Shown here one piece after another: positions 56,240 through 56,396 of a stretch of DNA of 64,000 nucleotides (positions within the stretch are counted from its first letter, which is position 1; each line of letters begins with the position of its first letter). Origin of the DNA: Candidatus Woesebacteria bacterium (lineage in GTDB: Bacteria > Patescibacteriota > Microgenomatia > UBA1400 > MFAQ01); contig DAOORK010000001.1 of the NCBI GenBank assembly GCA_035389185.1, positions 510,218 to 574,217 of the forward strand, given 5' to 3'. The position numbers were made by a program, and so were the translations under genes. The notes under the pieces were generated by a model. The model ran no database searches. It was not told the origin of the DNA and was given only the letters and a program-made list of their open reading frames with translations.

Positions 56240-56396
56240 AGTGAGCAGTGATCGAGGTTTGTCACCTCGGGAGTAAGGGAAGAAATCCAAATCGGAAATT
56301 AGAACCCAAAAAATAAATGAGTAAAATACGAGGTGGTACCGCCTGAAATGGCCCTCGTTAGTCCCCTATCAATGGAGATTAACGAGGGTCTTTTTA
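56240..56396 (+). promoter_or_regulatory. candidate T-box riboswitch leader (Val specifier) with intrinsic terminator
   Basis: T-box-like AATACGAGGTGGTACCGCC (consensus AATTAGGGTGGNACCGCG) at 56325-56343, 5' half complementary to 5' arm of terminator CCCTCGTTA...TAACGAGGG-TCTTTTT (56352-56395); small hairpin CGAGG-tttGTCA-CCTCG presenting GUC(A) Val codon. Confidence 0.5.

What the first reader, a model, noticed from the sequence alone, without database searches (positions are those of the whole stretch)
56240..56396. Valine-specifier T-box-like leader upstream of valS
The 187-bp tsaD-valS spacer contains the near-consensus T-box sequence AATACGAGGTGGTACCGCC. Its UGGU bulge would pair with an NCCA end carrying discriminator A, as in tRNA-Val. 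The 5' ACGAGG of this element is complementary to the 5' arm of a strong intrinsic terminator (CCCTCGTTA...TAACGAGGG-TCTTTTT) 20 nt before the valS ATG. That gives the classic antiterminator/terminator alternative. Upstream, a small hairpin displays GUC-A, a Val codon plus the conserved 3' purine. T-box control in a CPR-like, reduced genome would be noteworthy.
Basis: partly seen in the sequence, partly recalled or inferred. Interest (0 to 1): 0.55.

Follow-up and report, generated by a model that had tools for sequence, protein, structure and literature searches.

The report
Minimal valine T-box riboswitch before valS
The spacer upstream of the valyl-tRNA synthetase gene holds a real but unusually stripped-down T-box leader, about half the normal size, that most likely senses uncharged valine tRNA to switch off a transcription terminator; relatives of it regulate other tRNA synthetase genes in ultrasmall (CPR/Patescibacteria) bacteria.

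Summary
Window 56245-56395 (+) carries four parts in order. First, a K-turn hairpin whose 7-nt terminal loop ends in GUC-A. Second, a Stem II with an S-turn motif. Third, a T-box antiterminator (ACGAGG-UGGUACC-GCC..GGC-CCUCGU, -10.7 kcal/mol). Fourth, an overlapping terminator (-25.4 kcal/mol) with a U5 run, 21 nt before valS. Rfam's T-box model rejects it (18.4 bits against a cut-off of 93), so it is not a canonical T-box. Comparative evidence settles the matter. Seven Patescibacteria valS loci and about 45 metagenome loci share the architecture. On the model-based alignment, 95% of cells are paired and 19 of 22 pairs change on both sides. The loop triplet is a cognate codon in 44 of 44 distinct leaders: GUC before ValRS, AUC before IleRS, GAC or AAC before AspRS or AsnRS. 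The bulge base co-varies with specificity (p about 1e-8). A model trained only on non-Val leaders still finds the window's element (72.5 bits, E about 6e-15). The element lacks the distal Stem I platform, the Stem IIA/B pseudoknot, Stem III and the A2 G-U wobble pair, yet it has a terminator. That makes it a new minimal variant of the T-box. tRNA binding and charge sensing are inferred, and no cognate tRNA gene could be retrieved.

The parts
56230..56238 (+). Extended -10-like promoter box TGATAAAAT (P1), directly after the tsaD stop codon. It would start the leader a few nt before the K-turn.
   Evidence: A TGnTAnAAT-like box lies 8-12 nt upstream of the K-turn in all 8 protein-fetched leaders. 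Its function as a promoter is inferred, not shown.
56245..56274 (+). Ultrashort Stem I. It comprises a K-turn-like base (C-stem G56245 C56246 / G56273 U56274; bulge AGU; tandem GA 56250-51 and 56271-72), a 6-bp helix (56252-57 / 56265-70) and the 7-nt terminal loop UUUGUCA (56258-64).
   Evidence: RNAalifold recovers the C-stem and the helix with compensatory changes. On A3 the helix cells are 96.9% paired and the C-stem cells 96.0%, and every pair shows changes on both sides. The 5' GA is invariant in 40/40 leaders, although it was not part of the search pattern.
56261..56264 (+). Specifier triplet GUC (Val codon) followed by the conserved purine A56264.
   Evidence: GUC-A is invariant in 15/15 distinct Val leaders, while the 5' part of the loop varies (CUA, CCA, CUU, UUU, UUA). 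In the same alignment columns, leaders upstream of IleRS have AUC and those upstream of AspRS or AsnRS have GAC or AAC. That is 44/44 cognate, with a class-level chance of about 6e-6.
56277..56307 (+). Stem II. It has an outer helix GGG/CCC (56277-79 / 56305-07), an inner helix UCC/GGA (56286-88 / 56294-96) and an S-turn-like internal loop with GAA on the 5' strand (56282-84) and UUAGA on the 3' strand (56299-56303).
   Evidence: Both helices co-vary (A3 helices 3 and 4, 94.9% and 93.5% paired). [quoted passage not shown] It is conserved in the 8 protein-fetched leaders. In the metagenome loci its conservation follows from the search pattern.
56308..56327 (+). Single-stranded A-rich linker AAAAAAUAAAUGAGUAAAAU. 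It contains an RRRxG/RAG-like purine string (AAAUGAG, 56315-21) and has no Stem IIA/B pseudoknot and no Stem III.
   Evidence: The sequence shows this directly, and 20 nt cannot form these hairpins. In L114, L122, L082 and L104 a Stem III hairpin sits exactly between the GAG(U) and the AA-A1.
56328..56358 (+). Antiterminator. It comprises helix A1 ACGAGG/CCUCGU (56328-33 / 56353-58), the 7-nt T-box bulge UGGUACC (56334-40), helix A2 GCC/GGC (56341-43 / 56350-52) and the loop UGAAAU.
   Evidence: The Rfam T-box alignment places this stretch on the model's antiterminator. It is the minimum-energy fold of the 31-mer, at -10.7 kcal/mol. A1 and A2 co-vary across the family (A3 helices 5 and 6).
56350..56395 (+). 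Intrinsic terminator. The hairpin spans 56350-56390 (14+2 bp) and is followed by U5 at 56391-95. Its 5' arm reuses the 3' strands of A2 and A1 (56350-58).
   Evidence: It scores -25.4 kcal/mol and is part of the MFE and centroid folds. Compensatory changes occur among the 8 homologs. The same overlap appears in about 40 of 45 metagenome family members.
56403..56408 (+). -10-like hexamer TACAAT, 8 nt before the valS ATG. It may be a second promoter (P2) for a leaderless valS mRNA that is independent of the riboswitch.
   Evidence: The promoter scan lists TTAACG(18)TACAAT at 56379-56408. The box is conserved in WIN, L002, L003, L006, L035, L086, L106 and L109. Many genes in the window have such a box 7-10 nt before the ATG, and only 6/44 have an SD-like motif. 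This is inference only.
56417..58483 (+). valS (valine-tRNA ligase, 688 aa), the regulated gene.
   Evidence: NCBIfam NF004349 scores 816.9 bits (cut-off 704) and TIGR00422 scores 794.1 bits (cut-off 612.1). Pfam gives tRNA-synt_1 and Anticodon_1.

Best explanation
This is a tRNA-Val-responsive transcription attenuator of the T-box type, in a minimal architecture.

Transcription starts just upstream of 56245. The nascent leader folds into an ultrashort Stem I, whose terminal loop presents GUC-A, and a Stem II, whose S-turn purines would clamp the codon-anticodon helix formed with tRNA-Val (anticodon GAC). If the bound tRNA is uncharged, its 3' end ACCA pairs with UGGU in the 7-nt bulge and stabilises the weak antiterminator (56328-58). 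This keeps 56350-58 out of the much stronger terminator, so RNA polymerase reads into valS. If tRNA-Val is charged, or absent, the terminator (56350-90 plus U5) forms and transcription stops 21 nt before valS.

Shown here: the anatomy, the mutually exclusive helices, family-wide covariation, and the co-variation of loop triplet and bulge base with the downstream aaRS.

Inferred: tRNA binding, discrimination between charged and uncharged tRNA, the transcription start, and termination in vivo.
For: (1) Anatomy and energetics. The antiterminator (-10.7 kcal/mol) and the terminator (-25.4 kcal/mol) share 9 nt, so the default state is OFF.

(2) Conservation where selection is expected. The leader is present upstream of valS in 7 Patescibacteria genomes that were fetched by protein similarity only (ValRS 67-81% identical), with compensatory changes in Stem I, Stem II and the terminator.

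(3) Family-wide structure. On the raw MAFFT alignment A2, 91.4% of cells are paired against 72.2% in shuffles (0/500) and 34-52% with slid partners, and 17/22 pairs change on both sides. On the model-based alignment A3 the figures are 95.4% against 71.4%, and 19/22 pairs.

(4) Specifier logic. A pattern search that left the hairpin, A1 and the downstream gene unconstrained returned leaders whose loop triplet tracks the downstream gene. GUC precedes ValRS (15/15 distinct leaders), AUC precedes IleRS (9/9), GAC or AAC precedes the AspRS family (19/19), and AAC precedes AsnRS (1/1). Counting each class only once, the chance expectation is about 6e-6. The 7 hits without the architecture have no aaRS downstream.

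(5) Acceptor-end logic. The bulge is UGGU in 24/24 Val and Ile leaders and UGGC in 16/20 Asp and Asn leaders (Fisher p 1.2e-8). From established E. coli tRNA identity rules (my own knowledge), this fits A73 in tRNA-Val and tRNA-Ile and G73 in tRNA-Asp and tRNA-Asn. The U exceptions could still form a wobble pair with G73.

(6) Independence. Model R2, built only from Asp, Asn and Ile leaders, finds 56237-56360 at 72.5 bits, E 5.6e-15, together with the same 7 valS loci.

(7) Homology of the decoding module. The codon-plus-purine in the loop and the GAA/(G)UAGA S-turn map onto the solved N. farcinica ileS T-box, and the window's U at the bulged-G position matches a substitution (G67U) reported to cost only 2.4-fold in tRNA binding (PMC7583486).

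(8) Partial match to the known model. The Rfam T-box model aligns the 3' half to its antiterminator. A longer CPR valS leader (L013) reaches 36 bits with Stem II, an F-box-like IIA/B and Stem III, and it too has a collapsed Stem I with GUC-A in a hairpin loop.
Against: - RF00230 scores only 18.4 bits (gathering score 93). In a 63-kb search the 7 close homologs do not reach E<=1.
- Four elements that the literature calls important or indispensable are absent. These are the distal Stem I platform, which transcriptional T-boxes 'generally require'; the Stem IIA/B pseudoknot; Stem III ('indispensable for function'); and the G-U wobble at the base of A2, the 'primary steric sensor', which here is G56341-C56352 (PMC7583486).
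- No tRNA-Val gene could be examined.
- The leader is patchy. Close relatives L011 and L044 (ValRS 79-80% identical) lack it.
- A conserved -10-like box between the terminator and the ATG might drive valS expression that bypasses the switch.
- The conservation of GAAGAAA, TAGAAC and GGTGGNACCGC in the metagenome loci follows from the search pattern.
- There is no experiment.
Confidence: 0.85

Rival explanations
1. It is an ordinary member of the canonical class I T-box family (Rfam RF00230, like B. subtilis tyrS): a long Stem I with an internal specifier loop and an elbow-docking platform, Stem II, IIA/B, Stem III and an antiterminator.
For: The T-box core sequence, the 7-nt bulge and the terminator/antiterminator alternative are canonical, and the Rfam model spans its positions 1-219 over the region.
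Against: It scores 18.4 bits against a gathering score of 93, with 75 nt of Stem I deleted. The same model gives 118-150 bits to the ~210-nt valS T-boxes of Clostridia. My family model R1 gives those canonical T-boxes at most 18 bits. From K-turn to A1 is only 114 nt, and the 20-nt linker cannot hold IIA/B or Stem III.
Confidence: 0.02
2. It is a translational (class II, actinobacterial-type) T-box that controls ribosome access to valS instead of transcription.
For: The ultrashort Stem I with its terminal specifier loop, together with the Stem II S-turn, is the decoding module of the actinobacterial ileS T-boxes. Some family members have no U-run terminator, namely L082/94/131, L100 and L104, and L082 and L100 show SD-like GGAGG or AAGGAG near the competing helix.
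Against: The window's alternative helix is a 16-bp, G+C-rich hairpin directly followed by UUUUU. It ends 21 nt before the ATG and sequesters no SD. No SD-like motif precedes valS, and SD motifs are rare in this genome (6/44 genes). About 40 of the 45 metagenome members have the same hairpin plus U-run.
Confidence: 0.04
3. It binds tRNA-Val through the specifier but cannot tell charged from uncharged tRNA on its own. It would then report tRNA abundance, or need an accessory factor, because Stem III and the A2 G-U wobble are missing.
For: The review states that the antiterminator without Stem III does not bind tRNA appreciably and that the G-U wobble is the main steric sensor. The pair is G-C in 47/50 family members.
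Against: The UGGN bulge is kept and co-varies with the specifier class. That is expected only if the tRNA 3' end is read. The purines that flank Stem III (AAAUGAG...AAAA) are retained. Selection has kept the whole discriminator in two CPR lineages.
Confidence: 0.07
4. It is only the tsaD terminator followed by a valS promoter, and the T-box-like sequence is a decaying relic or a coincidence.
For: The terminator follows tsaD. A -10-like TACAAT box lies between the terminator and valS. Close relatives manage without the leader (L011, L044).
Against: The antiterminator, the specifier loop and Stem II are conserved with compensatory changes across ValRS proteins that are 67-81% identical. In L002, L003 and L008 the leader follows genes other than tsaD. 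The triplet tracks the downstream gene family-wide.
Confidence: 0.02

Closest known systems
Translational ileS T-box riboswitches of Actinobacteria with ultrashort Stem I (Sherwood, Grundy and Henkin 2015; solved for N. farcinica and M. tuberculosis), called 'class II' in TBDB
   Same: - A K-turn at the base of a short Stem I.
- The specifier triplet plus a purine in the terminal loop, about 16-19 nt from the 5' end.
- No elbow-docking platform.
- A Stem II S-turn with GAA / (G)UAGA purines positioned to clamp the codon-anticodon helix.
- A T-box bulge UGGNACC between helices A1 and A2.
- One high-GC pattern hit (L104, upstream of IleRS, no terminator) looks like this known class.
   Different: - The expression platform is an intrinsic terminator, not an SD sequestrator.
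- There is no Stem IIA/B pseudoknot or F-box.
- There is no Stem III in the window or in most family members.
- The base pair of A2 is G-C, not G-U.
- Specificities include Val, Asp and Asn, not only Ile.
- The hosts are Patescibacteria.
Canonical class I transcriptional T-box (Rfam RF00230; B. subtilis tyrS type)
   Same: - Same logic and same 3' half: the T-box sequence, the 7-nt bulge, and a terminator whose 5' arm is the 3' strand of the antiterminator.
- A specifier that matches the regulated aaRS gene and ends in C.
- A K-turn at the base of Stem I.
   Different: - It is about half the size: 114 nt from K-turn to A1, against about 210-220 nt.
- The specifier sits in a terminal loop instead of an internal loop.
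- The distal Stem I platform, IIA/B and Stem III are absent.
- It fails the family's gathering score (18.4 against 93).
glyQS T-box (the smallest well-studied transcriptional T-box)
   Same: A transcriptional T-box that naturally lacks part of the standard domain set.
   Different: The glyQS T-box keeps the long Stem I with the elbow platform and keeps Stem III, but lacks Stem II and IIA/B (PMC7583486, PMC11297988). The present leader does the opposite: it keeps Stem II and lacks the platform and Stem III.

Membership tests
T-box leader, canonical class I (Rfam RF00230) | Score at or above the curated Rfam gathering threshold (93 bits) | tested here: not met
   There is no hit at gathering score in the window. 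A local permissive scan gives 18.4 bits, E 0.04. As a positive control, Clostridia valS leaders score 118-150 bits.
T-box leader, canonical class I (Rfam RF00230) | Long Stem I with an internal specifier loop and a distal platform (AG bulge plus distal loop) that docks on the tRNA elbow | tested here: not met
   Stem I is 30 nt (56245-56274) and ends in a 7-nt loop. The Rfam alignment deletes 75 model positions.
T-box mechanism (any class) | The specifier triplet is a codon for the amino acid of the regulated gene and is followed by a purine | tested here: met
   GUC-A lies at 56261-64 upstream of valS. It is invariant in 15 distinct Val leaders. Across the family 44/44 leaders are cognate: GUC with ValRS, AUC with IleRS, GAC or AAC with AspRS or AsnRS. 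AAC before AspRS counts as cognate only if the enzyme is non-discriminating, which is an inference.
T-box mechanism (any class) | T-box sequence forming a 7-nt bulge UGGNACC between helices A1 and A2 | tested here: met
   The arrangement is 56328-33 / 56334-40 / 56341-43 .. 56350-52 / 56353-58. It is the minimum-energy fold of the 31-mer. A1 and A2 co-vary.
T-box mechanism (any class) | Bulge base N is complementary to the discriminator base (N73) of the cognate tRNA | tested here: inconclusive
   No tRNA-Val gene was retrievable. The evidence is indirect. The base is U in 24/24 Val and Ile leaders and C in 16/20 Asp and Asn leaders (p 1.2e-8). This fits A73 and G73 as known from E. coli (my own knowledge).
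T-box mechanism, transcriptional | An intrinsic terminator that is mutually exclusive with the antiterminator | tested here: met
   The hairpin at 56350-90 plus U5 scores -25.4 kcal/mol and shares 56350-58 with the antiterminator. It is conserved with compensatory changes and is present in about 40 of 45 metagenome family members.
T-box discriminator domain (Li et al. 2019, as reviewed in PMC7583486) | Stem III flanked by the 5'-RRRxG ... AA-3' purine string | tested here: not met
   The flanking purines are present (AAAUGAG..AAAA, 56315-26), but there is no hairpin in the 20-nt linker. A Stem III is present at that position in L114, L122, L082 and L104.
T-box discriminator domain (Li et al. 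2019, as reviewed in PMC7583486) | G-U wobble pair at the base of helix A2 (the steric sensor of the aminoacyl group) | tested here: not met
   The pair is G56341-C56352. Across the family it is GC 47, GU 2, CG 1.
Class II (actinobacterial, ultrashort Stem I) T-box | K-turn, short helix, terminal specifier loop, and a Stem II S-turn with its purine string | tested here: met
   The C-stem, the tandem GA pairs, the helix and the loop are conserved and co-vary. The GAA / UUAGA motif maps onto G37-A39 / G67-A71 of N. farcinica ileS. The three-dimensional S-turn is inferred from sequence only.
Class II (actinobacterial, ultrashort Stem I) T-box | Stem IIA/B pseudoknot with an F-box | tested here: not met
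   Only 20 single-stranded, A-rich nt lie between Stem II and A1. The divergent CPR leader L013 does have an F-box-like CCGUGA hairpin.
Class II (actinobacterial, ultrashort Stem I) T-box | Sequestrator helix that occludes the Shine-Dalgarno sequence (translational control) | tested here: not met
   The alternative helix is a terminator with a U-run. No SD-like motif precedes valS.
T-box mechanism (any class) | Binding of uncharged cognate tRNA switches the fold and turns expression on | not testable with these tools
   This needs in vitro transcription or binding assays.

The most novel reading that the evidence does not exclude
The window's leader belongs to a so far uncatalogued, minimal class of T-box riboswitch that is common in CPR bacteria. 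It precedes valS in Collierbacteria-like Microgenomates, aspS in Parcubacteria-like organisms, and also ileS. If this reading is right, the class senses tRNA charging co-transcriptionally with about 115 nt of RNA and does without four elements held to be essential in one class or the other: the tRNA-elbow platform, the Stem IIA/B pseudoknot, Stem III and the A2 G-U wobble. The minimal requirements for tRNA recognition and aminoacyl sensing by RNA would then be much smaller than current structural models imply.
Probability: 0.45. Interest if true: 0.78.

Novelty: new variant of a known kind. Interest (0 to 1): 0.62.

Why it matters
T-boxes are the model system for one RNA reading another RNA's identity and chemical state. 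Current structural work assigns essential roles to the long Stem I platform (for fast co-transcriptional capture), the IIA/B pseudoknot (a geometric hub), Stem III and the A2 G-U wobble (aminoacyl sensing). A natural, widespread, terminator-coupled T-box that lacks all four gives a compact test system of about 115-150 nt for finding out which contacts are really necessary.

It also extends tRNA-sensing riboregulation into Patescibacteria. Their gene regulation is almost unexplored, and the held literature reports no T-box or other natural riboswitch in these organisms. Standard annotation misses the class. RF00230 scores it at 18 bits, and TBDB's class II model was run only on Actinobacteria and on class I hits with a truncated Stem I. 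A dedicated covariance model would therefore recover an unseen set of regulated aaRS genes.

The use of either GAC or AAC specifiers before AspRS genes could also serve as a marker for non-discriminating AspRS and the indirect Asn-tRNA pathway.

Tried and rejected
- Rfam at gathering score on the whole window found only tRNA-Cys. A permissive scan produced a sub-threshold T-box hit among chance hits such as CopA and mir-873. A permissive scan of the 7 homologs found no T-box at E<=1.
- I looked for a cognate tRNA in the window, in 93 fetched loci and in extensions at both window ends (L133, L134). No tRNA-Val, Ile, Asp or Asn turned up.
- Three named Parcubacteria aspS loci (L135-137, AspRS 72-74% identical to L101) had no R1 hit. 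The taxonomic assignment of the Asp/Asn class therefore rests only on the names of protein relatives.
- My first antiterminator/terminator parser picked wrong partners where A-runs pair with U-runs. It then crashed on L082. I rewrote it, but it still mis-picks the U-run in L095 and L120, whose terminators are clear by eye.
- I considered a pseudoknot or hidden Stem III in the 20-nt linker and rejected it. The linker is too short and too A-rich, and it shows no co-varying partner.
- Sherwood et al. 2015 (PMC4313828) is not held, so the ultrashort Stem I description is taken from reviews.
- Literature searches for T-boxes or riboswitches in CPR/Patescibacteria, and for terminator-coupled T-boxes with a truncated Stem I, found nothing relevant. 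Absence from this library does not prove novelty.
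Full report
OBSERVATION. The T-box core AAUACGAGGUGGUACCGCC lies at 56325-43. A small hairpin at 56252-70 has the loop UUUGUCA. A strong hairpin at 56350-90 is followed by UUUUU (56391-95), 21 nt before the valS ATG at 56417. The downstream gene is valS by two NCBIfam equivalogs, both above cut-off. The exact 11-mer GGTGGTACCGC occurs once in the window, and 0.33 matches with up to 1 mismatch are expected by chance. The spacer folds better than shuffles (z = -2.9).

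THE PROPOSED CHECK FAILS. Rfam finds no T-box at gathering score. A permissive local scan gives RF00230 18.4 bits (cut-off 93, E 0.04). The antiterminator aligns well, but 75 positions of Stem I are deleted. The model itself works. It scores the ~210-nt valS leaders of Clostridia at 118-150 bits. The element is therefore not a canonical T-box, and the question had to be settled by comparison.

HOMOLOGS. A protein-based search returned 80 valS loci, of which 48 are from Patescibacteria (Collierbacteria, Woesebacteria, Chisholmbacteria and others). Seven of them (L001, L002, L003, L006, L007, L008, L035; ValRS 67-81% identical) carry the same leader. Close relatives L011 and L044 lack it, so its distribution is patchy. 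In the 8-sequence alignment A1, RNAalifold recovers a 2-bp C-stem, the Stem I helix, an outer Stem II helix and the terminator, with 11 pairs changed on both sides. For example, the Stem I helix is CGAG/CUCG in some leaders and CGGA/UCCG in others. The loop always ends in GUCA. The window derives from a 462-kb JGI metagenome contig, and a near-identical 538-kb NCBI MAG contig exists.

ANATOMY.
- An extended -10-like box TGATAAAAT lies at 56230-38.
- The K-turn-like base of Stem I has a C-stem GC/GU, a bulge AGU and tandem GA pairs.
- A 6-bp helix carries the loop UUUGUCA, with GUC at 56261-63 and A at 56264.
- Stem II spans 56277-56307. Its internal loop has GAA on the 5' strand and UUAGA on the 3' strand.
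- A 20-nt A-rich linker follows and contains AAAUGAG.
- The antiterminator comprises A1 (6 bp), the bulge UGGUACC and A2 (3 bp), at -10.7 kcal/mol.
- The terminator scores -25.4 kcal/mol and reuses 56350-58.
- With Stems I and II formed, the whole leader scores -21.9 kcal/mol in the antiterminator state and -37.3 kcal/mol in the terminator state. The default is therefore OFF, and something must stabilise the antiterminator.

THE DECISIVE TEST. I scanned the metagenome collection with GAAGAAAN{8,28}TAGAACN{15,40}GGTGGNACCGC. This pattern leaves the Stem I hairpin, helix A1, the bulge base and the downstream gene unconstrained. Of 52 loci, 45 show the full architecture. Seven do not, and these have no aaRS gene downstream. 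Downstream genes were identified with tblastn and NCBIfam, and the triplet was read in fixed columns of the model-based alignment. The triplet is GUC before ValRS (15 distinct leaders, including the window and the genome loci). It is AUC before IleRS (9). It is GAC (7) or AAC (12) before AspRS-family genes, and AAC before AsnRS (1). That is 44/44. Leaders and genes are inherited together, so I also counted each class only once. The chance that random triplets are cognate codons is then about 6e-6. Within the Val class the three loop bases before GUC vary (CUA, CCA, CUU, UUU, UUA), while GUC-A does not.

The bulge base also follows the class. It is U in 24/24 Val and Ile leaders and C in 16/20 Asp and Asn leaders (Fisher p 1.2e-8). 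This is the pattern expected if the bulge pairs with A73 or G73 of the cognate tRNAs. The discriminator identities are from my own knowledge of E. coli tRNAs, and they were not checked in these genomes.

STRUCTURE STATISTICS. I wrote the antiterminator-state structure (22 pairs) onto a raw MAFFT alignment of 40 distinct leaders (A2). There, 91.4% of cells pair, against 72.2 +/- 1.0% in shuffles (0/500) and 34-52% when partners are slid, and 17 pairs change on both sides. On the CM-derived alignment A3 (51 distinct rows) the figures are 95.4% against 71.4%, 19/22 pairs, and a covariation score of 0.595 against 0.176. The CM alignment leans towards its own structure, but the MAFFT result does not. 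About 40 of the 45 metagenome members have a terminator of -14 to -32 kcal/mol plus a U-run that overlaps the antiterminator. L082/94/131, L100 and L104 do not, and these may be translational.

CIRCULARITY CONTROL. R1 contains the window's own sequence. I therefore built R2 from the 26 Asp, Asn and Ile leaders only. R2 finds window 56237-56360 at 72.5 bits (E 5.6e-15 in 458 kb) and exactly the same seven valS loci. One caveat remains: the training leaders were retrieved with a 23-nt pattern taken from Val leaders. R1 gives the canonical Clostridia T-boxes and the seven chance loci at most 19 bits, while true members score 71-115 bits. The window holds only this one member. Its other aaRS gene, metG (31819-33231), has no leader.

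COMPARISON WITH KNOWN T-BOXES. The 2020 review (PMC7583486) describes ultrashort Stem I T-boxes as mostly translational and actinobacterial. [quoted passage not shown] It also calls the G-U wobble at the base of A2 the primary steric sensor of the aminoacyl group.

The decoding half of the present leader maps onto the solved N. farcinica ileS T-box. The codon plus purine correspond to A16-U17-C18 plus A19. The S-turn strands correspond to G37-A38-A39 and G67-U-A69-G70-A71. The window has U at the bulged-G position, and the G67U substitution costs only 2.4-fold in tRNA binding.

The rest of the leader differs. The expression platform is a terminator. The linker cannot hold IIA/B or Stem III, although the flanking purines remain and a few members (L114, L122, L082, L104) carry a Stem III at exactly that position. 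The A2 base pair is G-C, in 47 of 50 members.

A longer CPR valS leader (L013, Chisholmbacteria) has a short hairpin with GUC-A together with Stem II, an F-box-like IIA/B and Stem III, and it reaches 36 bits with RF00230. It looks like an intermediate form.

TBDB built its class I set from RF00230 hits. It ran its class II model only on Actinobacteria and on class I hits with a truncated Stem I (PMC7778990). This class would therefore escape it. Wels et al. 2008 list T-boxes only in Firmicutes, Actinobacteria, Chloroflexi, Deinococcus/Thermus and two Proteobacteria (PMC2494555). No held paper links T-boxes with CPR.

TAXONOMIC SCOPE. The Val class is in Collierbacteria-like Patescibacteria, judging by record titles. 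The closest named relatives of the L101 AspRS (72-75% identical) are from Paceibacterota, Taylorbacteria, Azambacteria and a 'Parcubacteria group bacterium'. Three such named loci lack the leader. The Asp/Asn class is therefore probably from Parcubacteria, but this is not proven.

WHAT IS NOT SHOWN. tRNA binding, charge discrimination, the transcription start and termination in vivo are all inferred. No cognate tRNA gene could be retrieved. A conserved TACAAT box 8 nt before the ATG could be a second promoter for a leaderless valS mRNA that bypasses the switch. This fits a genome in which SD-like motifs are rare (6/44 genes) and -10-like boxes often sit 7-10 nt before start codons.

VERDICT. 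The element works like a T-box. It shares a decoding module with the actinobacterial ultrashort class and an expression platform with the canonical class, but it fails defining features of both. I therefore file it as a new minimal variant of a known kind. Confidence in the tRNA-Val-sensing attenuator mechanism is 0.85, and interest is 0.62.

Noticed in passing
window 56403-56408 (TACAAT) and many other genes, e.g. upstream of ORFs 15516-16178(-), 26258-29221(-), 31819-33231(+), 58861-59556(-): Only 6 of 44 ORFs of at least 150 aa have an SD-like motif. Many have a -10-like hexamer ending 7-10 nt before the ATG, which suggests that leaderless mRNAs are common in this organism. valS has such a box downstream of its riboswitch terminator, conserved in 8 Val leaders. 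It may be a second, switch-independent promoter.
   Followed up: partly
L001 2821-2846 and 2967-2992; L008 2966-2991, 4801-4833 and 2022-2066; L083 (two copies); L005 4804; L103: A small palindromic repeat of about 26-34 nt (ATAGATTSC-hairpin-GSAATGAC) recurs in relatives. In L001 and L008 it is inserted into the terminal loop of Stem II of the valS leader and again between the terminator and the ATG, so those positions tolerate insertions. No palindromic copy was found in the window.
   Followed up: partly
L084, L090, L096, L101, L105, L110, L123 (AAC) against L116, L120, L121 (GAC); also L081, L085, L091, L093, L097, L119, L124, L126, L129: The same AspRS types are preceded by either an Asp (GAC) or an Asn (AAC) specifier. 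This holds both for the bacterial type lacking the GAD insertion (465 aa) and for the 'aspartate-tRNA(Asn) ligase' type (about 442 aa). For example, L120 has GAC and L101 has AAC, and their proteins are about 67% identical. This fits non-discriminating AspRS being regulated by tRNA-Asn charging. The presence of gatCAB and the absence of asnS in the hosts were not checked.
   Followed up: partly
L084, L085, L091, L119, L123, L124, L126: In these loci another gene lies between the Asp/Asn leader and aspS. It is an HD-domain-like protein of about 200-220 aa (L085, L119, L126; judged from sequence motifs by eye), a 72-aa ORF (L091, L123), a 61-aa ORF (L084) or a 327-aa ORF (L124). These would be co-regulated by the T-box. 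None was scanned against a protein family library.
   Followed up: no
L013 2791-2982 (Chisholmbacteria valS leader) and L010 1-70: A longer CPR valS leader has a short hairpin AGGU-UCGUCA-CCU (GUC-A in a terminal loop) together with Stem II, an F-box-like CCGUGA hairpin, Stem III and GGUGGUACCGU. RF00230 gives it 36 bits and R2 gives it 22 bits. It may be an evolutionary intermediate between the actinobacterial type and the minimal type.
   Followed up: partly
L133 16046-22067 (about 4.5 kb beyond the window's right end): rnpA, yidC, dnaA and dnaN lie about 7-8 kb downstream of the end of valS, so the window ends close to the presumed replication origin.
   Followed up: no
window 56417-58483: ValRS is only 688 aa and matches positions 1-697 of the 860-position NCBIfam model. 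It therefore lacks the usual C-terminal coiled-coil domain, as do its Patescibacteria relatives and the Clostridia (Acutalibacteraceae/Ruminococcaceae) relatives that the search returned.
   Followed up: no
L082, L094, L131, L100: These Ile-specific family members have no U-run terminator. After the antiterminator comes a helix that could pair with an SD-like GGAGG (L082: CCUCCAG...UUGGAGGUUGAGAAUG) or AAGGAG (L100). The same minimal decoding module may thus also be coupled to translational control.
   Followed up: no
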